Part shown: positions 22,401 through 61,270 of the stretch, in pieces | Layout: every line of letters starts with the position of its first letter | Numbering within the stretch: the first letter of the stretch is position 1 | IMG/VR virus record: IMGVR_UViG_3300001765_000045 | Source: an uncultured virus (IMG/VR IMGVR_UViG_3300001765_000045) | Taxonomy: Duplodnaviria; Heunggongvirae; Uroviricota; Caudoviricetes | Direction: 5' to 3' (one strand) | Length of the DNA: 64,000 nucleotides | Program-made: the position numbers and the translations under genes | The notes under the pieces: model-generated | The model's input: only the letters and a program-made list of their open reading frames with translations | What the model was told of the DNA's origin: nothing | The model's database searches: none

Positions 22401-22421
22401 TATACCCTCCTTAATGTTAAA

Positions 22422-28701: not shown

Positions 28702-28853
28702 TTTAATACTCCTTGGTTAATTGAAAAATACGTATTTATTGGGTGATAATTTCACTAACTACTATACCCATATATAATATATATACCTTATTTTTTATGA
28801 AAAAAAAACATTACCCAGCAGAGGACTAAGAATCTAGTCATGCTGGGTATTGT

Positions 28854-29546
28854 TTACTTGTCAGCTATTTTCGCGTAGCTGAAGCCGCGCTCAATAACTT
28901 TGTAGCCCTGCTCTGTGGTACCGACTAGACTTAGATCGGTACTCTGGGACGGCCTTACTGGCTCTCCGGGGTGGAATGTCCAGAGGTCACCCTCTGGACC
29001 AACGATTGCCACGGTAAAATTCACCGTGGATCCCGGTCTACCGGTTAGGGTGGCAAATACTTTACCACCCTTCTCCTGGTACGTATACCAGTTTTGGGGA
29101 AGGATCTTCTCTACCCCTAGCCTACCACTGATGTCGGTGGTACAGTACGCTTTGCAGCCTTCTGCAATCTCTGGGTGGATGTACTCCACCCACTCAGCAG
29201 TACGAAGTGCTCTCTCTAAGAACACTTCTGTAGTATAAGAAGTTCTACTTCCTACGCCGTCCTGCAGACGACTACCCAATGTTTGTTTCCAATAATCTGG
29301 ATCCAAACGTTGGATTTCGTCAATCGCTGCTATTACAACGGTTGACGAGAGATACTCGCTGCTAAGCATGTACTCAGCAACGAGTTCCGTCGGAACTTCT
29401 TCCGGAGGTTCTTCAACCCCCAGATGACATACGGGGACTGGATCTTCCCCGTGTCCCATACTTGTAGAATACTCTAGCAACCACGCCCCATGGGCGTAGT
29501 AATTAGTAGATCCCCTTTTGAAATCTACTTCTGTTAAAAACCTCAT
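28854..29546 (-). CDS. Hypothetical protein, GC-rich (likely horizontally acquired)
   Basis: 230-aa ORF near 50% GC by eye; LWTFHPGEPV motif; preceded by leader copy A. Confidence 0.75.
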   Translation of the reverse strand: MRFLTEVDFKRGSTNYYAHGAWLLEYSTSMGHGEDPVPVCHLGVEEPPEEVPTELVAEYMLSSEYLSSTVVIAAIDEIQRLDPDYWKQTLGSRLQDGVGSRTSYTTEVFLERALRTAEWVEYIHPEIAEGCKAYCTTDISGRLGVEKILPQNWYTYQEKGGKVFATLTGRPGSTVNFTVAIVGPEGDLWTFHPGEPVRPSQSTDLSLVGTTEQGYKVIERGFSYAKIADK

Positions 29547-29640
29547 GATATACTCCTAAGTAGATTAGTTTCATTACCATTAATGAAATGCTAACTACTA
29601 TTCCCACTTATAGTATATATGTTCCATTTTTTATGAAAAG
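29547..29640 (-). promoter_or_regulatory. Promoter + stem-loop leader + RBS module, copy A
   Basis: TATATACTATAAGTG..AGTAGTTAG..TTTCATTA-ATGG-TAATGAAA-CTAATCTACT-TAGGAG. Confidence 0.8.
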
Positions 29641-29649
29641 GAAGAAAAA

Positions 29650-30723
29650 ATGAAATTGTTTAATATGATACCTGTTGTTAGTTCATTGTCTTTAGAAGAA
29701 CTGAAACAAAAAAGAAAAGAAAATATTCAAGAACAATTAGAAGATGTTAAACAAATATCTTTAGAAGGTTTCTTTGACTTCTTTAAGAGTAAAGAAAAGA
29801 AAAAAGAAATTGAGAAAAAAACTGAAAAAGAGGATGTGACACTAGAATTATTAAATCTATTATCGTTACAATTAGACGAACTAGTCCAGAAATTGAATAA
29901 CTATACTGTCATACAACTAGATTTCAAAACTAGTTTTTTCTACGAAATGAAAAAATCTAAAGATATCCTAGATTCAGCTGATGAATATAAAAATTTTATC
30001 AAGTATATTCAAGATTTTTATTCTTTAGTAATAGATGATATACATGCTAATATTAGTTTCTTAAACAATGTTACTGAAGATAAACAATTATTAGACAAAA
30101 TCAATAAACAGAAAAATCAACTAATAGATAAAATAAAGCCAAGCAAACTATTTAAAGGTTACAAAAAAGACAATAGTTATAATGCAAATAAAAATCTAAC
30201 TTTATATATAAGTCCTAAAGGAACAGTTGGTCTATATTTTAATAATGGTATAGATAAAGAAAGAAAAGATATTTATAGTAGTGTAAGTAAATATGTTTCT
30301 GAGTTAGGTAATGCATCTTATTGGTTCTCACCCGGTGTTTTCAGAGAACCTGCACGCGTTGTATCTATATCTTTAGCTGAATATATAAATTTATTAAAGA
30401 AATTACAAATTATTGTATCAGAATTAATTGTTCTAAATACTAAATACAGTATATTTAATTCTAATAGTGAATTAAGTAAAACATTTTCTAATTATTTTAA
30501 ATTTAAAAATATCCCTTACAGTGAGTTAGGTTCCAATAATTCAGATGACAAAGATTTTGATGATGACGATGATTCAGAACAAACCTATGAAAATTGGATT
30601 GATGAAATAATGGAATATGCGTATAATGAAAATGAAGCTATAACTAAAGTTACTAGTTTAATAATAGCTTGTGTAGATGAAGTTCAATTAGCTTCTAAAC
30701 GTTTTTTAAAGGAACAAAAATGA
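29650..30723 (+). CDS. Putative virion (head) protein
   Basis: N-terminal SLE motifs (LSLEE, ISLEG) typical of phiKZ-like prohead protease cleavage sites. Confidence 0.6.
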   Translation: MKLFNMIPVVSSLSLEELKQKRKENIQEQLEDVKQISLEGFFDFFKSKEKKKEIEKKTEKEDVTLELLNLLSLQLDELVQKLNNYTVIQLDFKTSFFYEMKKSKDILDSADEYKNFIKYIQDFYSLVIDDIHANISFLNNVTEDKQLLDKINKQKNQLIDKIKPSKLFKGYKKDNSYNANKNLTLYISPKGTVGLYFNNGIDKERKDIYSSVSKYVSELGNASYWFSPGVFREPARVVSISLAEYINLLKKLQIIVSELIVLNTKYSIFNSNSELSKTFSNYFKFKNIPYSELGSNNSDDKDFDDDDDSEQTYENWIDEIMEYAYNENEAITKVTSLIIACVDEVQLASKRFLKEQK

Positions 30724-33992: not shown

Positions 33993-34019
33993 TTTACTAC
34001 TCCTTAAAAAGATTAAAAA

Positions 34020-34090
34020 TTATCTGATCGGATTCGAACCAATGACATCGCCTAATAATAAGCGTGCTCTACCAACTGAGCTACAGATGC
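34020..34090 (-). ncRNA. tRNA-like element (5-bp acceptor, 6-nt anticodon loop, no CCA)
   Basis: ATCTG-TA-GCTC-AGTTGGTA-GAGC-A-CGCTT-ATTATT-AGGCG-ATGTC-ATTGG-TTCGAAT-CCGAT-CAGAT. Confidence 0.7.
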
Positions 34091-34132
34091 TCATTATTAG
34101 TATATATGACCCATTTTTTATGGAAAAGATAT

Positions 34133-35053: not shown

Positions 35054-35145
35054 GATATTTCTCCTGAATAGATTAGCTTCGTTACCATTAACGATTGACT
35101 ACTATTCTCACCTATAGTATATATGACTGATTTTTTATAGAAAAA
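35054..35145 (-). promoter_or_regulatory. Promoter + stem-loop leader + RBS module, copy B
   Basis: TATATACTATAGGTGA-GAATAG..TCGTTA-ATGG-TAACGA..CTATTC-AGGAG. Confidence 0.8.
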
Positions 35146-35210
35146 TGTGTATAAAATAATATATTCAACATAGGTCCTTAAAGACCTATGTTGAATATTC
35201 TTTTTTTTGT

Positions 35211-42181: not shown

Positions 42182-42277
42182 GATAATCTCCTAAAGTAGA
42201 CTAGTTTCGTTACCATTAACGATATACTAACTACTATTTTCACTTATAGTATATATACCCTATTTTTTATGAAAAAA
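42182..42277 (-). promoter_or_regulatory. Promoter + stem-loop leader + RBS module, copy C
   Basis: TATATACTATAAGTG..AGTAGTTAG..TCGTTA-ATGG-TAACGA..CTAGTCTACT-TTAGGAG. Confidence 0.8.
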
Positions 42278-42333
42278 GATTAAAAAAAATACCCCATGTA
42301 AACTTACATGGGGTATCGTAATATCTTCAAACA

Positions 42334-43890
42334 TTAAATTCCTAATACAAAATCTTCAAACGTAACATCCGTCATATCCCCTTTAATAATACCAACTAAC
42401 ATAGGACGTACAGAGCCAGTACCATCAGCATCATAATAAAGATAACCGATGGTTTTATTGTATATGATATAATCATTTGCATCTTTTGCTGTAATAACAT
42501 TACCAGTGATAAGTACATTATCAGCTGTAATACCATTAACTAAAGATGTAAAATAATTTTTATTTAATACAATTTGATCCTCGTTACGAAAATCATTAAC
42601 AACTGTTGACGGATTTAGGGTATTAAAAACGAATGTATCGGCACCATTCCCTCCGAAAATATTATCTTTACCGGTACTTGTGATGATTATATCGTCACCA
42701 TTATTACCTTTGATAATATCATTACCACCGTATCCATTCATCACGTCAGAACGGATAGAACCGTTTAAAGTGTTGTTGTAACTATTTCCTTTGACAGTTA
42801 CAACGGTAGGTACAGTAAATGTACCAGTGGTAATAACAGGAACATTGATATTTAAACTAGAAGTGGCTATTGTCAGATTATTAAATTTTACATACTCTAT
42901 ATTTAAAAGAGTATCAATATCTAAACCTTTCTTAACCACATAACCATCCGCAGTTTTACCTATAAAATACTCATTACTATCACCAGTGTATCTTATAGTA
43001 TCATCTCCTAGCCCGCCATCGAAAACATTAGAAGCGTTGTTACCAATAAAAATATCGTTTTTATTACCACCAATGGCATTTTCAATAACTACTCCTCTAC
43101 CAATCACCATTGCTTTAATTCCACCGTACGTGTTAATTCCCTCCTCATTAAGATTGATAGTAAATGGGATACTCATATTCTCATAACTAAGAGTATCAAT
43201 GCCTCCTGAATCATATATAGTAAAACCCTCGGCATAAGCAACAGCAGTAAATCCATACGAGTTATTTCCTGATGTAGCTACTGTATTGACACCATACAAA
43301 TATTGTATAGCATCTATATCAGTTTGCATTAGGCCAGTTACATTAGCATCAAAAGAATCATTACCGTTGTAATAGTATGCCATCATACTATTTTCACGAT
43401 ATACAGAGGTATTTGCATTAGCTCCTTCAAATGGGTGCTTAAGTCCAAGCGCATGACCAATTTCATGTACTATCGTACTCATACCCTCGCTACTGGATAA
43501 TTCAATTTGGTCTATACGTATACGGTTTGATATAATAATATCGCCACCTATGCCGTTCGATATACCACTTATACCACTCTGTACTAATTCCCCTTTACCA
43601 AAACGAAGATCTGAAGTACCAGATACTTCTGTAAATTGTACATGTGCTATATCTGAATACAACTTTAATGCATTAATTATTGCTGCTTTTTCAGCGGCAG
43701 TAAATGGGGTAGTGGATGTTACGTGATTACCCCATTTACTCAAATCAGGGTCTGTAAAACTAAATGTAAGTCTAACAATTTTATCATTATCAGCACTCCA
43801 GATGAGTCCAGTGTTATTATAGCTATTTGCTATCAATGAGTCTACAAATGCAATACCTGATAAAGGTTTTCCAGCAACTAAATTTGTCAT
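42334..43890 (-). CDS. Serralysin-like M10 zinc metalloprotease with RTX Ca-binding repeats
   Basis: HEIGHALGLKH, Met-turn SMMAY, DIDAIQYLYG, IENAIGG, GGxGxD repeats, LYYDADG tail. Confidence 0.9.
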   Translation of the reverse strand: MTNLVAGKPLSGIAFVDSLIANSYNNTGLIWSADNDKIVRLTFSFTDPDLSKWGNHVTSTTPFTAAEKAAIINALKLYSDIAHVQFTEVSGTSDLRFGKGELVQSGISGISNGIGGDIIISNRIRIDQIELSSSEGMSTIVHEIGHALGLKHPFEGANANTSVYRENSMMAYYYNGNDSFDANVTGLMQTDIDAIQYLYGVNTVATSGNNSYGFTAVAYAEGFTIYDSGGIDTLSYENMSIPFTINLNEEGINTYGGIKAMVIGRGVVIENAIGGNKNDIFIGNNASNVFDGGLGDDTIRYTGDSNEYFIGKTADGYVVKKGLDIDTLLNIEYVKFNNLTIATSSLNINVPVITTGTFTVPTVVTVKGNSYNNTLNGSIRSDVMNGYGGNDIIKGNNGDDIIITSTGKDNIFGGNGADTFVFNTLNPSTVVNDFRNEDQIVLNKNYFTSLVNGITADNVLITGNVITAKDANDYIIYNKTIGYLYYDADGTGSVRPMLVGIIKGDMTDVTFEDFVLGI

Positions 43891-43982
43891 GATATTTCTC
43901 CTGAATAGATTAGTTTCGTTACAGTTAACGATTGACTAACTACTCTCATCTATAGTATATATGACGCATTTTTTATAGAAAG
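43891..43982 (-). promoter_or_regulatory. Promoter + stem-loop leader + RBS module, copy D
   Basis: TATATACTATAGATGA-GAGTAGTTAG..TCGTTA-ACTG-TAACGA..CTAATCTATTC-AGGAG. Confidence 0.8.
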
Positions 43983-44064
43983 TATATTAAGCAAAAAATA
44001 TGAACACACGCTCTATAGGACTTATAAGTCCTATAGAATGTGTTTATTCTTATTGTTTTTTTGG

Positions 44065-45611: not shown

Positions 45612-48600
45612 TTAATTATTTAACGTCATTTTTTTCATTTCATAAATAAGAGACTCTCTTATATCATATAATTCATTAAGACGTGTTAATGCTTCTTCAA
45701 TATAACCATTTGTACGAAGATGACATAATTCATCAGCTAATAGATGTACTTGTTCATGTAATTTATTAATAACGATATATCCGGATGTAAATCTATGTCC
45801 CGTTAGAAGTTCAGAATTTAACCATTTACCTAATAAACAATCTTTAGAATCCATGTCCATTAAAACTGTATTTTTACCTTTAATATAATCTATTTTATTC
45901 ATAATCCAGATACGGTGCTCTATTATAGCATGTAATATTTTCCGGTTATTATAACTTATTTCTTTACAATTTACCCAAGATGGTGGACTACTCCAGTTTA
46001 TCACCCATTCATGTATTTGATTACCTGGCATTGGTTTAGCAATACCATAACCTTGTGCCAGATTACAACCTAATTGTAGTAATACTTCACCATGTTCTAT
46101 TAACTCTACACCTTCAGCAATAACTGTACAATGAAAAGCATTGGCTAAATTAATTATACCTTCTAAAATAGATAAATCGTCTGCATCATTAAGCATATTA
46201 TAAACAAAACTTTTATCAATTTTGAGTATTTTAACTGGTAAACGTTTTAGATATGTTAATGATGAATAACCTGTACCAAAATCATCTAAAGAAAATATTA
46301 TACCTAAACTACGAATTTCTTCAATTAATGCAGATGCTCTAGCAATATCTTTTAATACAGTAGTTTCTAATACTTCAATTTCTAAATCACCTGAACAAGT
46401 ATCTGGATGCTCTATTAATAGTTTACGTAAGTATTGAACAAAATCTAATTGTTGCAATTGGATTGCACTGACATTAACACTAATTGGAAGTTTTAACCCA
46501 ATAGAACGCCAGATATCCATTTGAACTAAAGCAGTTTTGATAACCCATTTTCCAATTTCGGTTGCTAATGGATGATCTTCAATAACTTGTAAAAATGATA
46601 CTGGTCCTAATATCCCATTTTCTGGGTGATTCCAACGAATCAATGCTTCAACACCAATTACTACACCACTACGCATATTAACTTTTGGTTGATAATATAA
46701 TACAAATTCATTATTTGCTAATGCATTACGTATATGTTCAATTTTTACATTATTACCTCTCATATTACGATCAGTTATTTCATCAAATATATGATATCGA
46801 TTTTTACCAGTTAATTTAGCTTGATACATTGCTTGATCAGCTTGACGATATAATTGATCTGCATCAAGATTTTCTTCTTGTGGGTAAAATGTAACACCTA
46901 AACTAGCTGTTACATTTAAGAGAAATCCGTCAATAACTACTTGTTCAGAAACAGACATAAGTAAACGATTAATTATAGGAATACTATTTTGAATATTAAT
47001 TAAATCAACTAATACAATAATAAATTCATCACCACCAATACGAGCTAAAGTATCACCATCACGCATAATATTTTTCATTCGTGTCGATAATGAAATTAAT
47101 AAAGAATCACCTACTTTATGACCGTATTCATCATTAACTATTTTAAAACCGTCTAAATCAAGAAAAATTACAGCCAACATATTATTATGTCTATGTGTTT
47201 GAGATATTGCGTATTGTAATCGATCAGCTAATAATACACGATTCGGCAAATGTGTTAACATATCATAATGGGCAATATGTTCAAGATATTCTTGTTGTTT
47301 TTTAATTGAAGTAATATCAGAAAATAAACCAATGTAATTTTGAATACCACCATTTTCATCACATATAGAACTTATAGTTAATGTTTCTATAACTATCTGT
47401 CCATTTTTATGTTGGTTCCATATTTCCCCAGACCAATACCCTTTATTTAAAATATCTTTCCACATAGCGTCATAAAATTTTTTATCATGCTTTTTGGAAT
47501 TAAGTATACGTGGGTTCTTACCTATAACTTCTTCACGACTATAACCAGTGATATTAGTAAAAGCATTATTAACATCAAGAATATTAGCATTTAAATCTGT
47601 TATAGTAATGCCTTCACGCGCATGTGTAAAAACACTGGCTGCAAGACGCATAGCTTTTTCAGCTTTCTTTTGTTCTGTCACATTAGTCAAAATACAATGA
47701 GTGCGTAGAAAATTACCATTATTATCATAACTAATACGACCATTTACTTCCATTAATTTTATATCACCATTTTTACATTTAAATTCAAAAACTGGTCCAT
47801 TAACACTACCTTCATCTTTAAATCTAGGAAATTGGGTAGTAAATGAACAATTTGAATTAGTAGTAATAAAGTTATTAAATAGATAACCTATAACTTCACG
47901 CCGTTCATAACCTAATTGATTTAACCATTCTTGATTAATATCGAGAAATGAACCATCTATATTTAGAGATTGATAAGCTAATGGTGCTTGTTCAAACATT
48001 TCTCGAAATAAATGTTCACTCTCACGTAATGATTCTTCCATTTGTTTACGCTCGGTAATATTGATAATAATACCAAGATAACCTTGAATATTATTAAGTG
48101 GATCAAAAAGTGGCTCAGCATGCCCAGTGATCCATGTTATATTATCTTGTTTAGTCATAAAACGACATTCCCAATCCCAAGATATTCCAGCAGCAACTGC
48201 TGCATACCAACCATCAAATATTTTTTGTTTATCATCAGGATGCATTGTTTGACCCCAACCCTGTCCAAAAACTTTATCAGCTGATACTCCAGTTATTTCA
48301 CACCAACGAGGATTAACAAATATACAATCACCGTTTATATCTGTTTGAAAAATACCTACTGGTGAATGAGTAGTAATTATTCTATATTGTTCTTCACTTT
48401 TCCTTAATTTTTCTTCTGCTTTCTTGCGGTCAGTAATATCTTCACCAGCTGATAAGCTACCTATAATTTCACCATTTTTATTATAAATAACATTATTATG
48501 CCAAGCAATCAATCGTTCTTTACCACAGTTAGTACATACAGCATTTTCATGGTATTCTGAATTAGCTATATCACCTGACATTACTTTTTTAAATAACTCA

Positions 48601-48863
48601 CGCATTTTACTAATATCTGAAATGCTGGATATACATGTAAAAAACCAATCTTGACCAAGTAATTCATCTTCATTATAACCTAGAATTTCACAAGCTTTAC
48701 GGTTAACTAATGTAATTTGTCCTTTAGAATTAAGTGCAATAATCATTGCCTCTACAGTTTCTAAGATATTATTAGTACTATCATGTTCTAATTTTAAATC
48801 AATGACAGTTTGGTCATATTCATCAATATCAGAATTTATAGAATTTAACTTATTATTTTGCAT
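45612..48863 (-). CDS. PAS x4 - GGDEF - EAL - CZB c-di-GMP cyclase/phosphodiesterase
   Basis: D.LT.LPNR, DLDGFK, I-site RDGD, GGDEF, EAL, DDFGTGYSS, KIDKSF, EGVE, QGY; CZB pattern H..W..CLLGKW..H..VH. Confidence 0.95.
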   Translation of the reverse strand: MQNNKLNSINSDIDEYDQTVIDLKLEHDSTNNILETVEAMIIALNSKGQITLVNRKACEILGYNEDELLGQDWFFTCISSISDISKMRELFKKVMSGDIANSEYHENAVCTNCGKERLIAWHNNVIYNKNGEIIGSLSAGEDITDRKKAEEKLRKSEEQYRIITTHSPVGIFQTDINGDCIFVNPRWCEITGVSADKVFGQGWGQTMHPDDKQKIFDGWYAAVAAGISWDWECRFMTKQDNITWITGHAEPLFDPLNNIQGYLGIIINITERKQMEESLRESEHLFREMFEQAPLAYQSLNIDGSFLDINQEWLNQLGYERREVIGYLFNNFITTNSNCSFTTQFPRFKDEGSVNGPVFEFKCKNGDIKLMEVNGRISYDNNGNFLRTHCILTNVTEQKKAEKAMRLAASVFTHAREGITITDLNANILDVNNAFTNITGYSREEVIGKNPRILNSKKHDKKFYDAMWKDILNKGYWSGEIWNQHKNGQIVIETLTISSICDENGGIQNYIGLFSDITSIKKQQEYLEHIAHYDMLTHLPNRVLLADRLQYAISQTHRHNNMLAVIFLDLDGFKIVNDEYGHKVGDSLLISLSTRMKNIMRDGDTLARIGGDEFIIVLVDLINIQNSIPIINRLLMSVSEQVVIDGFLLNVTASLGVTFYPQEENLDADQLYRQADQAMYQAKLTGKNRYHIFDEITDRNMRGNNVKIEHIRNALANNEFVLYYQPKVNMRSGVVIGVEALIRWNHPENGILGPVSFLQVIEDHPLATEIGKWVIKTALVQMDIWRSIGLKLPISVNVSAIQLQQLDFVQYLRKLLIEHPDTCSGDLEIEVLETTVLKDIARASALIEEIRSLGIIFSLDDFGTGYSSLTYLKRLPVKILKIDKSFVYNMLNDADDLSILEGIINLANAFHCTVIAEGVELIEHGEVLLQLGCNLAQGYGIAKPMPGNQIHEWVINWSSPPSWVNCKEISYNNRKILHAIIEHRIWIMNKIDYIKGKNTVLMDMDSKDCLLGKWLNSELLTGHRFTSGYIVINKLHEQVHLLADELCHLRTNGYIEEALTRLNELYDIRESLIYEMKKMTLNN

Positions 48864-53447: not shown

Positions 53448-53522
53448 TGGTGGGACTGGTTGGGGTCAAACCAACGACCAAAGGATTATGAGTCCTCTGC
53501 TCTATCACTGAGCTACAGTCCC
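53448..53522 (-). tRNA. tRNA(CAT), Ile2-like, with encoded CCA
   Basis: GGGACTG TA GCTC AGTGATA GAGC A GAGGA CTCATAA TCCTT TGGTC GTTGG TTTGACC CCAAC CAGTCCC A CCA. Confidence 0.85.
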
Positions 53523-53627
53523 GTTAAACTTATTATCAATTAAATATAAATACTGATTATACGCTATCAGTAAACGTGAACTTTTTTATCGCGAGGAAGG
53601 AGATTCATAGTATTTACAGAACTAATA

Positions 53628-53699
53628 CGGAACTGATTGGACTCGAACCAATGACCAAAGGATTATGTGTTCTCTGCTCTACCACTGAGCTACAGTCCC
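53628..53699 (-). tRNA. Variant or pseudo tRNA(CAT)
   Basis: Paralog with canonical D and T loops but A33, an A30-C40 mismatch, G73 and no CCA. Confidence 0.65.
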
Positions 53700-53707
53700 G
53701 TTAAAAC

Positions 53708-53962
53708 CTATCCAACTTGATTACTTAAATGTGGTAGTTGTTGGCTATCTCTAAGCGCTACAACATTCCCATTTTTCTTCGCCAACTCTGTATAGCAGTT
53801 GGTTTTAATCAGCTCTTTTAATCTTCCGATTGTGTCTTTATCGGAAGATACTATTAACTGTAGAGTTGATGTATTCTCTACTAGAGAATTTACTACGGCT
53901 AACTGCACAGATTCCTGTTTCGTTGTGTATGTTGCAGAAAAAATCCTGGTAAACCAGTTCAT
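53708..53962 (-). CDS. Hypothetical protein
   Basis: 84-aa ORF, AAGGA RBS. Confidence 0.6.
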   Translation of the reverse strand: MNWFTRIFSATYTTKQESVQLAVVNSLVENTSTLQLIVSSDKDTIGRLKELIKTNCYTELAKKNGNVVALRDSQQLPHLSNQVG

Positions 53963-53988
53963 AATAAATCCTTTATTTAAAATCTAAA

Positions 53989-54339
53989 TTAACCGTAGAC
54001 AATTTTACCTACCGGAGTTAAGATAATTCCAGATAGCCATCCAAATGAATCAGACTCACCCCGGATAACTTTATAACCGGATAAAGCCAAAATTTCGTGT
54101 GCCGCATAAGCAGGTATACCTTGTGGCGTTATTAATTCGGAGTCGGCCAAATTAATAATCTCGTTATACAGCCGGGTGAAATCATCGTCACTTTCATTAT
54201 CCGGTTGCACAACTAACCAATTATGTCTTAAATTATTCGAAACCATTTCGCCATTACTGGCCTTACTGTATTGAAGGATTAACTCTATTGGGAGTATAAC
54301 CAATTTATCCAAACACTCAATTATTTTTTCAGTCGACAT
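53989..54339 (-). CDS. Hypothetical protein
   Basis: C-terminal GESDSFGWLSGIILTPVGKIVYG motif; GGAG RBS. Confidence 0.7.
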   Translation of the reverse strand: MSTEKIIECLDKLVILPIELILQYSKASNGEMVSNNLRHNWLVVQPDNESDDDFTRLYNEIINLADSELITPQGIPAYAAHEILALSGYKVIRGESDSFGWLSGIILTPVGKIVYG

Positions 54340-54364
54340 ATATTACTCCGTTATCAATCTAAAT

Positions 54365-54730
54365 TTTTGCAACCCATAAAACACTGACAAATAATATATT
54401 TGCAATGCTCTACAGGTTGAATACTAAATATTATTCCGACAATGGCAATAATATACCAGTAACAGCTTGTAGTAACAGTAATAATCAGTTACTGTTACTA
54501 CCGTACAGTTACAAAGGTTGATGAGACCTTATACATACACTGTAAGTATAGTGATCATCTAGTAATTTGACCAGGAAACCCCCGATCCAACTACATTACC
54601 AGACTTGATTAGGTATTGACATTATTTTAAAAGAAGGCTCTTCGTTACACTCGGGTAACCCTGCTAGAACTAACCGGTTGAACTCTATTTACTCAAACCC
54701 GTGGCAGGATTTAACTTTGATTTGAGTACC
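54365..54730 (-). ncRNA. Candidate structured ncRNA downstream of tRNA-Leu
   Basis: ORF-free, raised GC, many stems (TACTCAAA/TTTGAGTA, TCTGGTAAT/ATTACTAGA, GTAGTAACAGTAA/TTACTGTTACTAC). Confidence 0.45.
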
Positions 54731-54776
54731 TATCTTTACAAATTATGTCTTTACCAAATTTACTAAAGTACATAGG

Positions 54777-54858
54777 TGGGGGTAATCGGACTCGAACCGA
54801 TATACCTTGCGGCGAGGGATTTTAAGTCCCTTGTGTCTACCTATTTCACCATACCCCC
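54777..54858 (-). tRNA. tRNA-Leu(TAA)
   Basis: GGGGGTA..AGGGA CTTAAAA TCCCT, long variable arm, ATCGG TTCGAGT CCGAT TACCCCC A; followed by CCT rather than CCA. Confidence 0.9.
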
Positions 54859-54888
54859 ACCTATACACTCTACATTTTTATTACTTTA

Positions 54889-54990
54889 AAAAAATAGCAA
54901 TGGAGGAAACAGTAAAAACTTTTTAAACTAATAAAAATATTTTTTACTTAGTCTAATATATCAATACTGTTTCCTCCATTGCTATTTTTT
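54889..54990. repeat. Long perfect inverted repeat between tRNA genes
   Basis: aaaaaatagcaatggaggaaacagta / tactgtttcctccattgctatttttt (26 bp). Confidence 0.85.
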
Positions 54991-54992
54991 AA

Positions 54993-55067
54993 TGGTGGGA
55001 CTGGTTGGGGTCAAACCAACGACCAAAGGATTATGAGTCCTCTGCTCTATCACTGAGCTACAGTCCC
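54993..55067 (-). tRNA. tRNA(CAT), Ile2-like, identical copy of 53448-53522
   Basis: Same 75-nt sequence including CCA. Confidence 0.85.
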
Positions 55068-55498: not shown

Positions 55499-55590
55499 TA
55501 TGATACTCCTGAACAATCAGCTTCGTTACCATTAACGATTAACTCCTGTTCTCATTTATAGTATATAGAGATACTTTTCTATTGAAAAGG
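55499..55590 (-). promoter_or_regulatory. Promoter + stem-loop leader + RBS module, copy E
   Basis: TATATACTATAAATGA-GAACA..TCGTTA-ATGG-TAACGA..TGTTC-AGGAG. Confidence 0.78.
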
Positions 55591-55602
55591 TTTTTTGTTA
55601 AA

Positions 55603-55794
55603 TTAAATACCGGCTGGCGTCCAGGTAGTTTTCTCTTTATTCCAGCTATATGGTACTTCTTTATCAGCCTCTGAATACCATGATAAATCTTTAATCTTTG
55701 ATTCATCGTGACCGGCATTTCTAAACGCTGTTTCTATATCTGCACCAACCACTGTTTCTTTAGTACCATTTTCCCAATACAGTGTAAATGACAT
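55603..55794 (-). CDS. Small hypothetical protein
   Basis: FTLYWENG..VVGADIETAFRNAG; AGGA RBS. Confidence 0.65.
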   Translation of the reverse strand: MSFTLYWENGTKETVVGADIETAFRNAGHDESKIKDLSWYSEADKEVPYSWNKEKTTWTPAGI

Positions 55795-56061: not shown

Positions 56062-57174
56062 TTAAGACGTTATTTTATTTCCTTGTTGAATCCAGCTGTC
56101 TGATACAAGTTTATGAACTTTAACATATCCTGTTATACTATTACCACCATATGCACCTGATACCAGAATATCACCTGTGGAATTAATAGAAACTAAGTTA
56201 CCAAAATGTTCACCTATATGTTCACCGTGTATTTCTTTACCCTCTTCTAACCAAATACCTGATATATATTTATAAACTTTAACATAACCGGTTTGATTAT
56301 CAGCATTATATGCTCCTATAACTACAACATTACCAATGGAATTAATAGATATAGAATAACCAAAGAAATCTGTACTAATATTTCCAGTTATTTTATTACC
56401 TAATAAAAACCAGTCTCCTGAATTAAATTTATAGACTTTAACATAACCTTTTGCAGTATCAGAACCATATGAACCAATAGCAATGATATCACCAGAGCTA
56501 TTAATAGAAACTGAAACACCAAAGAAATCATATTCAACATCTCCAGGTAATTTGTTTCCTTGTTGTATCCATATATCATTTATTAATTTATAAACCTTAA
56601 CATAACCAGTCCAATTATTAGCATAAAATGCCCCTATGGCAATAATATTACCTTTATCATTGATAGATACTGAATGACCAAAATGTTCACTACTATGTTC
56701 ACCTGTTAATGTATCACCTTTTTGTATCCATAACCCTATTTTATATTTATAAACTTTAACATATCCTTTATAATTATCAGAACCATGTGCACTTATTACA
56801 ATAGTATCACCTATATCGTTGATAGATATTGAAAAACCGAAAATATCACTAATAAAATTCCCTGTTATTTTATTACCTAATAAAAACCAGTCTCCTGAAT
56901 TAAATTTATAGACTTTAACATAACCTATAGTATTATCAGCGTATGGTGAACTTATTGCTATAATATCGCCAGTAAAATTAATATCTAACGAATAACCAAA
57001 TACATCATCAATAGATTCTCCTGATATTTTATTACCGTACTGAACCCATGTGTCAGATATAAGTTTGTAGACTTTAACATAACCTGTAGAGTTATTAGCT
57101 TCAGGAGCACTAACTACAATAGTATCACTTGCACCATTGATAGATACCGAAAACCCAAAAAGATCTTTAGTCAT
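56062..57174 (-). CDS. FG-GAP repeat 7-bladed beta-propeller protein
   Basis: Seven ~53-aa repeats FG.SVSIN..GD.I.IGA......GYVKVYK....W.Q.G. Confidence 0.85.
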   Translation of the reverse strand: MTKDLFGFSVSINGASDTIVVSAPEANNSTGYVKVYKLISDTWVQYGNKISGESIDDVFGYSLDINFTGDIIAISSPYADNTIGYVKVYKFNSGDWFLLGNKITGNFISDIFGFSISINDIGDTIVISAHGSDNYKGYVKVYKYKIGLWIQKGDTLTGEHSSEHFGHSVSINDKGNIIAIGAFYANNWTGYVKVYKLINDIWIQQGNKLPGDVEYDFFGVSVSINSSGDIIAIGSYGSDTAKGYVKVYKFNSGDWFLLGNKITGNISTDFFGYSISINSIGNVVVIGAYNADNQTGYVKVYKYISGIWLEEGKEIHGEHIGEHFGNLVSINSTGDILVSGAYGGNSITGYVKVHKLVSDSWIQQGNKITS

Positions 57175-57248
57175 AATTTCACCCGTATTATTAACTATTT
57201 AATAAAAAAAAATAATGGAACACCTGTTAAAGTGTTCCATTTGATTAA

Positions 57249-57364
57249 CTGAAGAGGCATTGGTGCGGTGCTTGGATGGTATAACCAACATACTTATGGT
57301 TAATACTTTGTTTAACTCTAACAAAAGTATGTTAGTCGCAAGCACCGCACCAATGCTTCTTCAG
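57249..57364. repeat. GC-rich long inverted repeat (26 bp, 1 mismatch)
   Basis: ctgaagaggcattggtgcggtgcttg / caagcaccgcaccaatgcttcttcag. Confidence 0.85.
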
Positions 57365-57372
57365 AACATAAA

Positions 57373-57597
57373 CTAACTGTTCCGGATGATCCGGAACATC
57401 AGGTATAAGTTTAGCACTGGGGTTAGTGCTATCCCCATAACTGTTGTGAATGATAACATACTTACCATCCATGTATGGTAAGTATATTTACTTATGATAG
57501 AATCTAAACCGTCTATGCGGAACATCATGTCCGCGAAGACATACCCCGCTGGGGTTAAATATACTATAATGATTAATGCTATCAAAAATTCATTCAT
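57373..57597 (-). CDS. Small membrane protein
   Basis: Two hydrophobic segments, TPVLN motif; behind leader copy F. Confidence 0.7.
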   Translation of the reverse strand: MNEFLIALIIIVYLTPAGYVFADMMFRIDGLDSIISKYTYHTWMVSMLSFTTVMGIALTPVLNLYLMFRIIRNS

Positions 57598-57691
57598 GAT
57601 ATTTCTCCTGAATAGATTAGCTTCGTTACCATTAATGAATTACTAACTACTCTCACTTATAGTATATATGATCAACCTCTTATTGAAAAGG
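57598..57691 (-). promoter_or_regulatory. Promoter + stem-loop leader + RBS module, copy F
   Basis: TATATACTATAAGTGA-GAGTAGTTAG..TTCATTA-ATGG-TAACGAA-GCTAATCTATTC-AGGAG. Confidence 0.8.
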
Positions 57692-57698
57692 TTTTTAA

Positions 57699-57947
57699 TT
57701 ATTGGAAATCTTGTGTATTTCTCTTTAATAAATCTATTGATAAAACAATATTTAATAATGGTATTAATGATACATATAATACAAGTGAAAATGATGTAAT
57801 TTTCGATATAAATCTTGTATTTTTGTTTTTACATGTGTCTATTTCTAATACTTTTGATATACTACAATCAAATACATATAATGCCGGTAAGATATAAAAT
57901 AAAAATATCAGTAAAAATATAGAAAATGCATATAATTCTTCACCCAC
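57699..57947 (-). CDS. Small membrane protein, paralog-like to 57373..57597
   Basis: Y.LPALYVFD..IPLLN versus YLTPAGYVFAD..TPVLN; AGGAG RBS, GTG start. Confidence 0.65.
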   Translation of the reverse strand: MGEELYAFSIFLLIFLFYILPALYVFDCSISKVLEIDTCKNKNTRFISKITSFSLVLYVSLIPLLNIVLSIDLLKRNTQDFQ

Positions 57948-57970
57948 AATTAACTCCTAAAAAATAAAAA

Positions 57971-58042
57971 TATATCTAACCGGATTTGAATAGATAACAT
58001 CATCTAAAAATAGATGTGCTCTTTTAACTGAGCTATAGATGC
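57971..58042 (-). ncRNA. tRNA-like element, second copy of 34020-34090
   Basis: ATCTA-TA-GCTC-AGTTAAAA-GAGC-A-CATCT-ATTTTT-AGATG-ATGTT-ATCTA-TTCAAAT-CCGGT-TAGAT. Confidence 0.55.
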
Positions 58043-58157
58043 TCACTTATAGTATATATAAACACCTTTCTATTGAAAAGGTGTTTATATATAATTTAAA
58101 TTAAAAAAATATACATCTAAGCTGATAAAGCTTAGATGTATATAAACTTACATATAT

Positions 58158-58650
58158 TTCCCAAAATGGGTATCCCCTAAACCAAGGGGACCACTACAGT
58201 TTTCACTGCCTTGAGCATCCACCCCCGTAGTCATCAAGTTTGTGGTCTTATCTCTTTTACCATATAAGTTCAGCTTATACGGTACTTCTCATTGAGATTA
58301 TACTTTCTAACAAATTCAGGATCGCACAGTTTCCCTGGTCTTGGTGTATAACAATAAGTTATACTTTAAGATGGCATAAATGTTAAAATAGCTCAGTATA
58401 GACATATATCATATTAATATAATATTGATAATTAGTTTTTACTGATTTTGAGAAGATACTGACAGTATCCTACCTTTTTTAAAGGTAACAGGTATTAGTC
58501 CTGCTTCTTTACGATGGATAAACTGTCTACCGTCTTTCGATTACAATATTATGCCTTGGAGAGTTCGTCTTACTAATGATTCATATAAGATTTTAAAATC
58601 TTATATCTCCAACTGACTACTACTGTATTTTTCGGTATCGGGTCTACATT
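58158..58650 (-). ncRNA. Candidate large multi-branched ncRNA (about 490 nt)
   Basis: No ORF; more than 10 local hairpins, nested long-range helices, GAAA-capped stems on the minus strand; terminator at 58109-58142. Confidence 0.55.
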
Positions 58651-58682
58651 ATATAAGATGTTTAAGAAAAAAAATAACAACC

Positions 58683-59810
58683 TTAAATATCTATTATACT
58701 AAATATTTTTAACGTCCATTTATCTAGTATAAGTGCATATACTTCAATATATCCAGTCGCATCCTTAAAATTATAAGCACCTACTGCAATAATATCACCT
58801 GAACTATTAATACCTGTTGAATTACCAAAACGCACATATTCATTTTCACCTATTAATGTATTACCATATTGTGCCCAGTCATCTAATTCATATTTAAATA
58901 TTGACACATAACCAGATTGGGTATAAGCATTATCTGCACCTATTATAACAATGTCACCAGTAGAATTAATATCTACTGATATACCAAAATTTTCTTTATT
59001 AAAATTACCTTCTAATTTAGTACCTATTTGTGTCCAAACATCTGAAATATATTTATATATTACTGCATAGCCTCTATAATTATTAGCACCATATGCTCCT
59101 ATAACTATAATATCGCCTGAACTATTTATAGATACTGACCGACCGAAATGTTCATTCTCAGATTCTCCTAATAATGTAACACCTTGTTGAACCCATTTAT
59201 TATTTATACACTTTAATACTTTAACATAACCTTTATAATTATCAGCGGCATAAGCCCCTATTATAACAGTATCACCTTTACTATTAATATCTACTGAATG
59301 ACCAAAATAATCATTGATAGATTCACTTATTATGATATTTCCTTGTAATACCCAATCGATTTTTTTAAATTTATATACTTTAGTAAAACCTGATTTACTA
59401 TCTAAACCTATTACAACTGTATCACCTATACTATTAATAGCTAAAGTAGAAGAAAAAAATTTTCGGGTAGATTCACTTAATATTGTACTACCTTGTTGAA
59501 CCCAATTTTTTAACATATATTTATAAATCTTGACATAACTGGTATTATCATTAATAGAACATGCTCCTATAGCTATAATATTACCTGGACCATTAATGGA
59601 TACTGATATACCAAACTTATCTCCCCATTTTTCACCTATTAATGTATCACCATACTGTTTCCATAGACCTGATATAAATTTATAAACTTTAGCATACCCT
59701 GTATAATTATAATCTCCATAAGCCCCTATTATAACAGTGTCACCTTTACTATTAATATCTATTGAATAACCAAAATATTCGTGTGCTGAAATTCCTGTCA
59801 TTAAATTCAA
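58683..59810 (-). CDS. FG-GAP repeat 7-bladed beta-propeller protein
   Basis: Seven repeats of the same consensus; TTG start after AAGGAG. Confidence 0.85.
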   Translation of the reverse strand: MNLMTGISAHEYFGYSIDINSKGDTVIIGAYGDYNYTGYAKVYKFISGLWKQYGDTLIGEKWGDKFGISVSINGPGNIIAIGACSINDNTSYVKIYKYMLKNWVQQGSTILSESTRKFFSSTLAINSIGDTVVIGLDSKSGFTKVYKFKKIDWVLQGNIIISESINDYFGHSVDINSKGDTVIIGAYAADNYKGYVKVLKCINNKWVQQGVTLLGESENEHFGRSVSINSSGDIIVIGAYGANNYRGYAVIYKYISDVWTQIGTKLEGNFNKENFGISVDINSTGDIVIIGADNAYTQSGYVSIFKYELDDWAQYGNTLIGENEYVRFGNSTGINSSGDIIAVGAYNFKDATGYIEVYALILDKWTLKIFSIIDI

Positions 59811-59926
59811 AATCTACTCCTTGATTTATTTACATATGGTAATACAAAATTCTCCAAATTATTAAAAAAAATTAATAACTACTAATAGTTATTAATTTTA
59901 AATCAATGTGATTTTTAATAATTTTT

Positions 59927-61270
59927 TTATGGTGTAGATTTTATAGATAGAAATAATTGTTCACGATACTTTGTTAAAAAATCTATAATAAACTCATTAC
60001 CTTTAGGACTTATTACTTTAGAATTAGATATATCTCCATAATAGTAATAATGTTTAAAAGGTAATGAACTTTTAACCAATTCTTTTTTAAGCTCTGGATT
60101 TTGATCTATTTTAGCTTTAATAGCATTTATAATAATTTGCTGAAAATTATCTATATATATCTTAGGAAGATCTTTAGCGAATTTTTTAACTTCATAACCC
60201 GACATATTTTTTAACTCCGGGTATTTATATCCTGTAGATACATAGTACCAAAATCCTTCCAAGTTTTTAAAATATCCGTGTTGAGTATCATTAAACCCAA
60301 TATCAGCTAAGTTACTTAAGTCTCTACCTAATTGAGTAGTACTTTTAGTATAAATATTGATATGATTAATTCCATCTTGAAGAGGAGATATCTCAAATGT
60401 ATTTTCAAGATGGTGTTTTTTAAATTCTTCTAATCCTTTATCAAAATTACCTGATTTATTTAATTGTAGCCATATGTCTTTAATGACTTCTCCATGGCAT
60501 GGAGCTGGTGCACAAAAACACATAAGTTCACTATCTGGTTTAATTTCACGAAGACTGTTTAGTATATCATAATCTTCATTTATTATAGAATTATTAAGAT
60601 ATTCCTTATATTTAGCTATAGCTTCTAGTCTAGGAAGTTCTTTAGTAATAGGATAAGGGTTACCTAACGGACTTCCTCTTCCTATATATATAGTTTTATT
60701 AGTAGGTTTATCCTTATATTTATTCAGGATTTTTATTCCCGGTTTTTTACCTAATGCTAGTAATTTCTTTACTAATATTTCAGTATTCGCTTTACTAGCT
60801 AAGTTATATACGGGTATATCATTTTTAGAAGCTATTGATATAGCTGTACCTGTTCCACCTGTTTCTTTTGTTCTATTACTATGATTTTCACAAGCATCAG
60901 GTGTCCAACACACAACAAAATCTACTGGTGTTTTTAAATTTTGTCCAAGTATCTGTCCAATATTTCTAGCATGTAAAAGTTTAACATACTCAGATAAATT
61001 ATCCCATACTGGATGTATAGAAGATGCTATTTGACGATGCTGTATAGTTGGGTAATAATTATATGATTTGTGATCATTAGTTTTCTTAGGCAACCATATT
61101 TCTTTTTTACCTTGAACTGCATCACATCCATATTCAAAAGCTTTATCACTACCATCAGCTGCTCCTGATCTTAATGTATAACCTATTTTAGCTAAATGTT
61201 TAGCTAAAATAGACATAGTGAATATTATACTTTCCGGAACTTTTCTAGACCCTATGCCAGCATAAAACAT
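59927..61270 (-). CDS. Fusion protein: DprA/SLOG-like + DUF4326-like + phiKZ-type C-terminal domain
   Basis: YAGIGSR..LRSGAADGSD..GGTGTA; IYIGRGSPLGNPY..CFCAPAPCHG; DGINHINIY..LGRDLSN..EGFWY. Confidence 0.7.
   Translation of the reverse strand: MFYAGIGSRKVPESIIFTMSILAKHLAKIGYTLRSGAADGSDKAFEYGCDAVQGKKEIWLPKKTNDHKSYNYYPTIQHRQIASSIHPVWDNLSEYVKLLHARNIGQILGQNLKTPVDFVVCWTPDACENHSNRTKETGGTGTAISIASKNDIPVYNLASKANTEILVKKLLALGKKPGIKILNKYKDKPTNKTIYIGRGSPLGNPYPITKELPRLEAIAKYKEYLNNSIINEDYDILNSLREIKPDSELMCFCAPAPCHGEVIKDIWLQLNKSGNFDKGLEEFKKHHLENTFEISPLQDGINHINIYTKSTTQLGRDLSNLADIGFNDTQHGYFKNLEGFWYYVSTGYKYPELKNMSGYEVKKFAKDLPKIYIDNFQQIIINAIKAKIDQNPELKKELVKSSLPFKHYYYYGDISNSKVISPKGNEFIIDFLTKYREQLFLSIKSTP

What the first reader, a model, noticed from the sequence alone, without database searches (positions are those of the whole stretch)
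58158..58650. Large ornate ncRNA candidate (about 490 nt) near the tRNA cluster
Seen: no ORF in an otherwise gene-dense genome; long-range helices gtagtca(58227)/tgactac(58614), ggcataa(58373)/ttatgcc(58549) and ttggaga(58556)/tctccaa(58606) nest without conflict; local hairpins include tcccct/agggga, accatataag/cttatacggt, gtataac/gttatac, gatact/agtatc and taccttt/aaaggta; minus-strand CAGT-GAAA-ACTG is a GNRA-capped stem; a terminator follows at 58109-58142. Established: large ncRNAs such as GOLLD and ROOL occur near phage tRNA clusters. I cannot assign a family, so it may be new.
Basis: partly seen in the sequence, partly recalled or inferred. Interest (0 to 1): 0.75.

Follow-up and report, generated by a model that had tools for sequence, protein, structure and literature searches.

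The report
Abundant orphan noncoding RNA, jumbo phage
An uncultured freshwater giant phage has a gene-free stretch that yields a very abundant RNA of about 400 bases with no known relatives, so it is probably a new phage noncoding RNA, but its elaborate fold and its job remain unproven.

Summary
The window is a chimallin-encoding (nucleus-forming) jumbo phage. However, three nested 7-bp helices are no more than chance gives in this AT-rich DNA. Folding energy is only moderately unusual: z is about -3.5 to -3.7 on both strands for the expressed core, and 1 of 24 control windows is as low.

The new evidence is expression. In 3 of 3 metatranscriptome runs laid (two studies), one contig covers 58232/58256/58274 to 58641-58647 at depth 25-81. 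The adjacent gene sits at 2-5 and most other flank bins at zero. The right ends agree within 6 nt and lie just downstream of a minus-strand TATAAT.

There is no Rfam match even at E<=10. No homologue turned up in phage, viral, genome or metagenome collections, so covariation cannot be tested. None of the four largest small ORFs (19-48 aa) has a ribosome-binding site.

Verdict: a real, discrete, abundant, probably minus-strand noncoding RNA in its own cassette. It is an orphan of the known kind "abundant jumbo-phage ncRNA of unknown function". "Ornate" is not shown, and the strand and 3' end are unresolved.

The parts
58274..58641 (-). Core of the abundant RNA, common to all three metatranscriptome contigs. 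The strand is inferred, not measured.
   Evidence: table 8: X4 58274-58647 (depth 80.7), X6 58256-58642 (57.4), X12 58232-58641 (24.8).
58232..58647 (-). Largest extent of the RNA seen. The right end (5' end if minus) is sharp at 58641-58647. The left end is ragged at 58232, 58256 and 58274.
   Evidence: tables 2, 7 and 8. No loose ends at these places. DNA run X2 continues across both ends.
58649..58654 (-). TATAAT box within CTTATATAATGTAG, 2-8 nt upstream of the RNA contigs' right ends. Putative promoter; it resembles the TATAAG core of the phage's recurrent promoter module.
   Evidence: Inference; no TSS mapping.
58668..58676 (.). A-run where other strains carry about 1.59 kb of extra DNA between the FG-GAP gene and the RNA cassette.
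   Evidence: table 8: X2 record 6 is split here, with record positions 1186-2772 unmatched. Table 7: X6 has a 77-nt loose end at 58668.
58227..58233 (.). It lies outside 2 of the 3 RNA contigs.
58338..58338 (.). The only substitution inside the RNA. G>A in all 4 runs laid; it turns G.U (plus) or C.A (minus) with 58372 into a Watson-Crick pair.
   Evidence: table 3; helix list.
58150..58226 (-). Three short hairpins, including CAGU-GAAA-ACUG, between the RNA and the terminator. No cover in any RNA run laid, so a trailer at most.
58109..58143 (-). Intrinsic-terminator-like hairpin plus T-run, minus strand only. The loop varies in strain X2.
   Evidence: tables 3 and 4.
58042..58100 (-). Next cassette boundary: a copy of the recurrent hairpin-plus-promoter module (…CATATATACTATAAGTGAG).
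57971..58042 (-). tRNA-like element directly behind that promoter. Paralogue of the odd tRNA at 34018-34091.
   Evidence: 26.8 bits, gathering score 29; 75% identity over 141 nt.
58683..59810 (-). Upstream neighbour: FG-GAP repeat protein. A paralogue lies at 56062-57174.

Best explanation
58232/58274-58647 encodes a discrete, non-coding RNA of roughly 370-415 nt that accumulates to a high level. The host genome is an uncultured chimallin-encoding jumbo phage.

Shown:
- The RNA exists in environmental metatranscriptomes of two studies.
- It is far more abundant than the flanking genes.
- It has one sharp end at 58641-58647.
- The stretch has no ORF with a ribosome-binding site and no known RNA family match.
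- Its DNA is separable from the upstream gene by a 1.6-kb presence/absence polymorphism.

Inferred:
- It is transcribed from the minus strand, like 69 of the 74 ORFs of at least 80 aa in the window.
- It starts at about 58647 from a compact AT-rich promoter (TATAAT, 58654-58649).
- Its 3' end is set by trimming or processing at 58232-58274, upstream of the terminator at 58143-58109.
- It owes its accumulation to a strong promoter plus a compact, moderately stable fold (robust local domains 58393-58445 and 58461-58527).

Mechanism I commit to, with low confidence: it acts in trans as RNA, as a protein-binding decoy or scaffold, rather than as a messenger, a ribozyme of a known class, or an antisense regulator of the phage's conserved early leaders.
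For: Expression
- 18 of 20 listed runs hold part of 57000-60000, and 6 of them are RNA.
- laid 4 of the 20 runs: 3 RNA from 2 studies, plus 1 DNA.
- Each RNA run has one contig on the stretch, at depth 80.7, 57.4 and 24.8.
- Contigs on the adjacent FG-GAP gene have depth 2-3.8 (X4, 5 contigs) and 2.1-4.7 (X6, 4 contigs).
- Bins 56906-58113 and 59926-60500 have depth 0 in all three RNA runs, while DNA run X2 covers 30 of 30 bins. DNA carry-over therefore cannot explain the peak.
- The right ends (58647, 58642, 58641) carry no loose ends.

Non-coding
- no ORF over 48 aa.
- 0 of the 4 largest small ORFs (19-48 aa) have an SD-like motif. 28 of 49 large minus-strand ORFs do, against 7.7% of random positions.
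- no tblastn remnant of any window protein.

Not a known family
- 6 gathering-level matches in the window, none here.
- 24 matches at E<=10, none to a large ncRNA, ribozyme or intron family.

Own cassette
-, tables 7 and 8: the insertion polymorphism at 58668-58676.
- the minus-strand terminator.

Strand
- TATAAT lies next to the sharp end.
- Gene orientation.
- The hairpin 58258-58284 has a G.U on minus and an A.C on plus.

Fold
- z -3.73 for the core, with 1 of 24 controls as low.

Precedent
- PA5oct ncRNA001-004, 236-619 nt, two of them at 1.2-5.1% of phage reads, function unknown (PMC7318152, passages and Table 1 read; annotation seen).
Against: - Logan contigs carry no strand information and give poor ends and levels; one search says so itself.
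- No homologue was found, so there is no covariation and no evidence of selection.
- The substitution density (1 in 531 nt, against 11 in 1711 nt of flanks in X2) is not significantly lower.
- The listed helices are chance-level.
- On the minus strand the 420-nt fold is ordinary for this genome: 145 of 303 windows are as low by GC regression, and 2 of 12 minus-strand controls are as low by shuffle z.
- The longer 427-nt stretch folds better on the plus strand (z -5.20 against -3.47; 15 against 7 G.U pairs).
- Chimallin phages transcribe with their own polymerases (PMC8244752, passage), so a sigma-70-like TATAAT need not be a promoter.
- The upstream sequence is not a copy of the phage's recurrent promoter module.
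- The RNA contigs stop 90-130 nt short of the terminator, which the simple 'promoter to terminator' picture does not explain.
- The decoy/scaffold mechanism has no direct support.
Confidence: 0.5

Rival explanations
1. Same RNA, opposite strand. A plus-strand structured RNA runs antisense to the general direction of transcription, with both ends made by processing or by phage-polymerase signals that I cannot recognise.
For: - The 427-nt stretch 58222-58648 folds better on plus: -106.9 kcal/mol, z -5.20, against -96.8, z -3.47 on minus.
- My own shuffles give -5.26 against -2.74, and 0 of 24 controls reach -5.26.
- Two perfect hairpins are extended by G.U-rich helices on plus only: 58242-58250/58293-58301 and 58338-58344/58366-58372.
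- 24 of 67 promoters of phage 201phi2-1 had no recognisable motif (PMC11512511, passage).
Against: - The asymmetry vanishes for the core shared by all three RNA contigs (z -3.50 plus, -3.73 minus). It rests mostly on 58222-58273, which 2 of the 3 contigs lack.
- There is no promoter-like sequence upstream of 58232-58274 on plus, and no terminator after 58647 on plus.
- 69 of the 74 ORFs of at least 80 aa are on minus.
- The plus architecture mirrored on minus costs only 2.2 kcal/mol more than the minus optimum.
Confidence: 0.2
2. A stable by-product with no function of its own. It would be a nuclease-resistant fragment of a longer transcript, such as the 3' UTR of the upstream cassette or a read-through, that simply survives decay.
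For: - The left ends are ragged, unrelated to depth, and sit at or next to a hairpin: 58274 is at the loop edge and 58256 is 2 nt past the stem 58258-58284.
- No conservation can be shown.
- The fold is only moderately unusual.
Against: - Depth is 12-40 times that of contigs on the upstream gene, and cover on most other flank bins is zero.
- The right end is sharp in three runs of two studies, next to a TATAAT.
- The cassette is kept intact, with 1 change in 531 nt, in strains sampled in different years and habitats.
Confidence: 0.15
3. A highly structured messenger for a small hydrophobic peptide. One candidate is the 29-aa minus-strand ORF 58405-58316; another is the 48-aa plus-strand ORF 58240-58386. 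It would work like type I toxin mRNAs of the hok kind, where end-to-end pairing and slow 3' trimming control translation.
For: - The small ORFs exist.
- The 29-aa peptide has a hydrophobic N-terminal two-thirds and a charged tail.
- Predicted pairing of the two ends (58614-58620/58227-58233 plus CCC/GGG) and heterogeneous 3' ends recall hok mRNA. That resemblance is recalled, not tested.
Against: - 0 of the 4 largest small ORFs (19-48 aa) have an SD-like motif, against 28 of 49 real genes.
- AT-rich non-coding frames give I/L/F/Y/N/K-rich peptides by default.
- The one substitution (58338) is non-synonymous in the 29-aa ORF (Thr to Ile; read from the sequence).
- No antisense partner is seen.
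- The only related Rfam hit, BsrG at 11.2 bits and E 5.8, lies outside the RNA.
Confidence: 0.08
4. Not an RNA feature at all: a DNA-level element (origin, packaging or recombination site), with the RNA signal an artefact.
For: - The neighbourhood is a hotspot of cassette shuffling and long inverted repeats.
Against: - The same peak appears in three RNA libraries of two studies, with no cover on most flank bins.
- There is no turn in cumulative GC skew at this place.
Confidence: 0.03

Closest known systems
RNA-seq-defined ncRNAs of jumbo phage PA5oct (ncRNA001-004; ncRNA002 is annotated 'putative lncRNA', 21951-22401)
   Same: ORF-free, actively transcribed stretches of 236-619 nt in a jumbo phage. 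Two of them reach 1.2-5.1% of phage reads. They have no similarity to other sequences and unknown function (PMC7318152, passages and Table 1).
   Different: No sequence or structure-model similarity (no match in 50,697 phage records; best E 1.03 in the PA5oct record). PA5oct is not a chimallin phage and uses the host RNA polymerase. Its two abundant RNAs lie in the terminal repeat.
GOLLD and ROOL large RNAs of phages and prophages
   Same: Large non-coding RNAs of phages, often near tRNA islands, function unknown, abundant during lysis (PMC12286853, passages). A tRNA-like element lies about 190 nt away here, and tRNA genes 3.1 kb away.
   Different: No match to either Rfam model even at E<=10. 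This RNA is smaller; many GOLLD members exceed 800 nt. There is no covariation-supported structure, and multimeric cage formation is untested.
sRNAs of chimallin phages 201phi2-1 and phiKZ
   Same: Non-coding transcripts of nucleus-forming jumbo phages found by transcriptomics. One of them lies next to a tRNA (PMC11512511, passages).
   Different: Those are under 250 nt by definition, and 8 of 11 are 5'-UTR-derived. This one is about 400 nt, intergenic and not attached to a coding sequence.
T4 tRNA-region stable RNAs (species 1 and 2); recalled, not checked in a call or paper
   Same: Stable phage RNAs of unknown function encoded beside tRNA genes and matured by processing.
   Different: They are much smaller (about 140 nt, as recalled). 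No homology was tested because no sequence was at hand.

Membership tests
GOLLD RNA | Match to the family covariance model (conserved 3' domain) | tested here: not met
   cmscan against all 4227 Rfam families: no match at gathering score or at E<=10 on 57800-58800.
GOLLD RNA | Phage or prophage location near tRNA genes | tested here: met
   Jumbo phage. tRNA-like element at 57971-58042 and tRNA genes at 53448-55067. This feature is not specific to the family.
ROOL RNA | Match to the family covariance model | tested here: not met
   no match.
Group I intron | Match to the Intron_gpI model, and interruption of a host gene | tested here: not met
   The same scan finds the window's own intron at 20874-21171 (79.1 bits) but nothing here. 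The upstream ORF is complete and a terminator follows.
RNase P RNA, tmRNA, 6S, group II intron, OLE, HEARO and other Rfam large RNAs | Match to the family covariance model | tested here: not met
   One search lists all 24 matches at E<=10. They are the tRNA-like element (26.8 bits), 16 microRNA-model matches and 7 weak others; none is to these families.
Abundant ORF-free jumbo-phage ncRNA (operational class, as in PA5oct) | Actively transcribed region lacking a plausible ORF | tested here: met
Abundant ORF-free jumbo-phage ncRNA (operational class, as in PA5oct) | Homology to a described member | tested here: not met
   (no blastn match in the phage collection, which holds PA5oct). (model R1: best E 1.03).
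Conserved structured RNA family (any) | Covarying base pairs across homologues | not testable with these tools
   No homologue was found. The only moderately diverged relative, P0122 (65%), lies in a collection whose contigs could not be fetched.
Type I toxin mRNA (hok-like) | Small hydrophobic ORF with translation signals, plus an antisense RNA | tested here: inconclusive
   A 29-aa ORF is present but has no SD-like motif. An antisense RNA cannot be seen in unstranded contigs.

The most novel reading that the evidence does not exclude
This is the founding member of a new class of large phage RNAs specific to a little-sampled lineage of nucleus-forming jumbo phages. It would be made in great excess over mRNAs and act as an RNA-only decoy or assembly.

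One concrete form: two of its hairpins (58584-58605 and 58258-58284) are built from the promoter core TATAAG/CTTATA, the same core as in the phage's recurrent promoter module ACTATAAGTGAG. There are 5 occurrences in 444 nt, against about 0.7 expected from base composition (my own arithmetic, not a call). The RNA might therefore mimic promoter DNA and titrate a phage RNA polymerase, as 6S RNA does for the host enzyme, to switch off early transcription.
Probability: 0.15. Interest if true: 0.8.

Novelty: new variant of a known kind. Interest (0 to 1): 0.5.

Why it matters
Abundant non-coding RNAs keep turning up in jumbo phages, and none has a known function. This one comes with in-situ expression evidence from natural freshwater communities, in a nucleus-forming lineage with no cultured relative. 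If it is a functional RNA, it is a defined 0.4-kb molecule that can be synthesised and tested for folding, multimerisation and protein binding without culturing the phage. It also raises the question of what such an RNA does in a phage that separates transcription (phage nucleus) from translation (cytoplasm). If it is only a stable by-product, it is a caution about reading structure into AT-rich intergenic DNA.

Tried and rejected
Homologue searches, all negative
- blastn 'distant' of 57950-58700 against 50,697 phage records: no match.
- Exact motifs in viral contigs: a 45-mer and a 19-mer, 0 hits each.
- A 19-mer in genome contigs: 2 hits, in a Streptomyces and a Roseovarius record, with similarity limited to 20-22 nt, so chance.
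- Flanking proteins in viral contigs: FG-GAP none; DprA-like one distant locus at 32%; DNA polymerase none.
- Metagenome contigs with an FG-GAP alignment: 31 loci. blastn and nhmmer of the RNA against all 32 loci held found only the source contig L002.
- A covariance model of the robust 135-nt domain (R1) found only itself in 385,673 bases (next best E 1.6). It found nothing better than E 1.03 in two jumbo-phage records.
- No whole genome is held for the window.

Ideas rejected
- Decayed gene: no tblastn remnant.
- Second copy in the window: none.
- Antisense regulator of the conserved early 5' leaders: duplex energies are no better than shuffles (z +0.29 plus, -0.12 minus).
- 5' region homologous to the promoter module: the alignment is not convincing.
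- A second recurrent promoter motif shared with the RNA's upstream sequence: none found.
- Fold energy as a strand indicator: not robust.

Parts without RNA cover (58100-58231, and 56906-58113 as a whole) are reported only as contig absence, which the tool warns is weak.

Full report
What the window is
- The window encodes a chimallin-family nuclear-shell protein (22965-24803), the divergent family-B DNA polymerase and a multisubunit RNA polymerase beta subunit beside a group I intron. It also encodes ribonucleotide reductase and an SNF2-type helicase.
- The closest cultured phage by chimallin is Burkholderia phage FLC9, at 38.8% identity. This is therefore an uncultured, AT-rich, nucleus-forming jumbo phage (GC about 0.2-0.45).
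- 69 of the 74 ORFs of at least 80 aa lie on the minus strand.

The observation
- 58150-58680 is free of ORFs above 48 aa.
- 58109-58143 is a clean intrinsic-terminator-like hairpin with a T-run on the minus strand only. Four such sites were found in 57400-59000, against 0.2 expected.
- The specific argument, nested 7-bp long-range helices, does not exceed chance:
  - The region has 19 perfect 7-mer stems against 13.1 +/- 5.1 in 300 dinucleotide shuffles; 48 of 300 shuffles have as many.
  - A compatible set of four long-range stems is reached by 44 of 300 shuffles.
- Whole-sequence folding is better than shuffles:
  - 541 nt: z -3.95 minus, -4.98 plus.
  - 427 nt: z -3.47 minus, -5.20 plus.
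- Genomic controls temper this:
  - Twelve coding windows gave z from +0.77 to -2.40 on plus and from +1.15 to -4.39 on minus.
  - In a GC regression over 303 windows the candidate ranks 12 of 303 on plus and 145 of 303 on minus.

Known families and other origins
- Rfam gave nothing here at gathering thresholds.
- At E<=10 the 24 matches in 57800-58800 are a sub-threshold tRNA-like element at 57971-58042 (26.8 bits, gathering score 29), 16 microRNA-model matches (nearly all on the two hairpins at 58046-58143) and 7 weak others.
- None is to GOLLD, ROOL, RNase P, tmRNA, 6S or the intron families. The same library finds the window's own group I intron at 79.1 bits.
- No window protein leaves a tblastn remnant in the stretch, and the stretch has no second copy in the window.

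The decisive new evidence is expression
- 18 of 20 listed public runs hold part of 57000-60000, and 6 of them are RNA.
- I laid 4 runs: RNA runs X4 and X6 (one study), RNA run X12 (another study) and DNA run X2.
- Each RNA run has exactly one high-depth contig on the stretch:

| Run | Contig | Depth |
|---|---|---|
| X4 | 58274-58647 | 80.7 |
| X6 | 58256-58642 | 57.4 |
| X12 | 58232-58641 | 24.8 |

- Contigs on the adjacent FG-GAP gene have depth 2-3.8 (X4) and 2.1-4.7 (X6).
- Bins 56906-58113 and 59926-60500 are empty in all three RNA runs, whereas X2 covers all 30 bins. DNA carry-over therefore cannot explain the peak.
- The right ends agree within 6 nt and carry no loose ends. The left ends differ by 42 nt and do not track depth.
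- The tool warns that contigs give neither strand nor reliable ends or levels. I therefore treat 'discrete and abundant' as shown, and the exact ends as hints.
It excludes the GNRA-capped stem (58196-58207) and the terminator. In 2 of 3 runs it also excludes the left strand of the proposed closing helix.

Cassette structure
- In X2 one contig matches 59852-58668 and 58676-57609, with 1587 unmatched bases between them. In X6 a contig carries a 77-nt loose end at 58668 (tables 7 and 8).
- Other strains thus have about 1.6 kb more DNA between the FG-GAP gene and the RNA. The join falls in an A-run, 14-22 nt beyond the TATAAT.
- The RNA with its short upstream sequence is therefore a separable unit, not simply the tail of the FG-GAP message.
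- The loose end starts like the phage's recurrent module. That module is a hairpin, then CATATATACTATAAGTGAG, then a conserved 5' leader with AGGAG and ATG, present in at least 7 copies.

Strand
- For minus:
  - An exact TATAAT (58654-58649) sits 2-8 nt upstream of the sharp end, inside CTTATATAATG, which resembles the TATAAG core of the module.
  - Gene orientation favours minus.
  - The terminator is minus-only.
  - The hairpin 58258-58284 has a G.U on minus and an A.C on plus.
- For plus:
  - The 427-nt fold is better, with 15 G.U pairs against 7.
- The plus advantage disappears for the core shared by all three contigs: z -3.50 plus against -3.73 minus. The plus architecture costs only 2.2 kcal/mol more than the optimum when mirrored onto minus.
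- I put minus at roughly 70%.

Coding potential
- The four largest small ORFs (48, 20 and 21 aa on plus; 29 aa on minus) all lack an SD-like motif.
- 28 of 49 large minus-strand ORFs have one, against 7.7% of random positions.

Conservation
- The only substitution inside the RNA in the 4 runs is 58338 G>A. It converts a G.U (plus) or C.A (minus) with 58372 into a Watson-Crick pair. This is compatible with a helix there, but it is a single event.
- Density is 1 change in 531 nt, against 11 in 1711 nt of flanks in X2. That is lower but not significantly so (my Poisson estimate is about 0.15).
- The lineage is sparsely sampled:
  - The FG-GAP neighbour has one 98% relative and then at most 49%.
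  - The DprA-like neighbour has one 65% relative, held only in Logan/ENA.
- All searches of phage, viral, genome and metagenome collections found no homologue, by sequence or with a 135-nt structure model. Covariation therefore cannot be tested here.

Function
- I tested and rejected one concrete idea, antisense pairing with the conserved early leaders.
- What remains is analogy:
  - Jumbo phage PA5oct makes four ORF-free RNAs of 236-619 nt, two of them at 1.2-5.1% of phage reads, function unknown (PMC7318152, passages and Table 1; annotation confirmed).
  - Chimallin phage 201phi2-1 has 11 sRNAs under 250 nt (PMC11512511, passages).
  - GOLLD and ROOL are large phage RNAs near tRNA islands that form RNA-only cages (PMC12286853, passages).
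- The present RNA works like the first group operationally but is a member of none.
- My best reading is an independently transcribed, stable, trans-acting non-coding RNA. Confidence is 0.5 that it is a genuine minus-strand ncRNA gene. The specific decoy/scaffold mechanism is much less certain.

Verdict
- It is novel as an orphan within a known kind.
- Interest is moderate.

Noticed in passing
57150-57620 (long hairpin arms 57249-57274 / 57339-57364): The neighbouring stretch is far more structured than the finding: MFE -165.7 kcal/mol, z -11.78. It has a hairpin of about 116 nt with 26-nt arms that are 96% complementary, plus several perfect hairpins and a terminator. No RNA contig covers it in the three RNA runs. 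Rfam gives only microRNA-precursor-like noise. Strain X2 replaces 57362-57502 with 134 other letters.
   Followed up: partly
58042-58100, 57652-57697, 55551-55608, 43945-43990, 42239-42290, 35107-35163, 29603-29650 (minus strand): A recurrent module of about 110 nt: hairpin, CATATATACTATAAGTGAG, then a conserved 5' leader AGTAGTTAGT..AATCGTTAATGGTAACGAAGCTAATCTATTCAGGAG..ATG. It probably combines early promoter and leader, and it marks the boundaries at which cassettes are shuffled, like the promoter-early stem-loops of T4-type phages.
   Followed up: partly
57971-58042 and 34018-34091 (minus strand): Two paralogous tRNA-like elements, 75% identical over 141 nt including the promoter. Each sits directly behind a module promoter. 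The anticodon loop is non-canonical: ARAGORN reports a two-letter 'anticodon', and the copy at 57971-58042 scores 26.8 bits, below the gathering score.
   Followed up: partly
58668-58676: Presence/absence polymorphism of about 1.59 kb between strains, at an A-run between the FG-GAP gene and the RNA cassette.
   Followed up: partly
20874-21171 (minus strand): Group I intron (79.1 bits) abutting the RNA polymerase beta-subunit ORF 21144-22400.
   Followed up: no
45612-48863 (minus strand): A 1083-aa phage protein with four PAS domains plus GGDEF and EAL domains. This is cyclic-di-GMP turnover machinery carried by a jumbo phage.
   Followed up: no
42334-43890 (minus strand): A 518-aa protein with serralysin-type metallopeptidase and RTX calcium-binding repeat domains. 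No PHROG match.
   Followed up: no
58683-59810, 56062-57174 and loci L003-L007: A family of FG-GAP repeat paralogues (42-50% identical). Their nearest cellular relatives are T9SS-sorted proteins of Flavobacteriia, a hint at the host. However, the phage's genes use AGGAG ribosome-binding sites.
   Followed up: partly
59927-61270 (minus strand): Fusion of a DprA-like domain, DUF4326 and a third domain. Only one relative covers the full length (65% identity).
   Followed up: no
28771-29610: A GC-rich island (0.44-0.49, against about 0.29) that folds unusually well on both strands and overlaps ORF 28854-29546.
   Followed up: no
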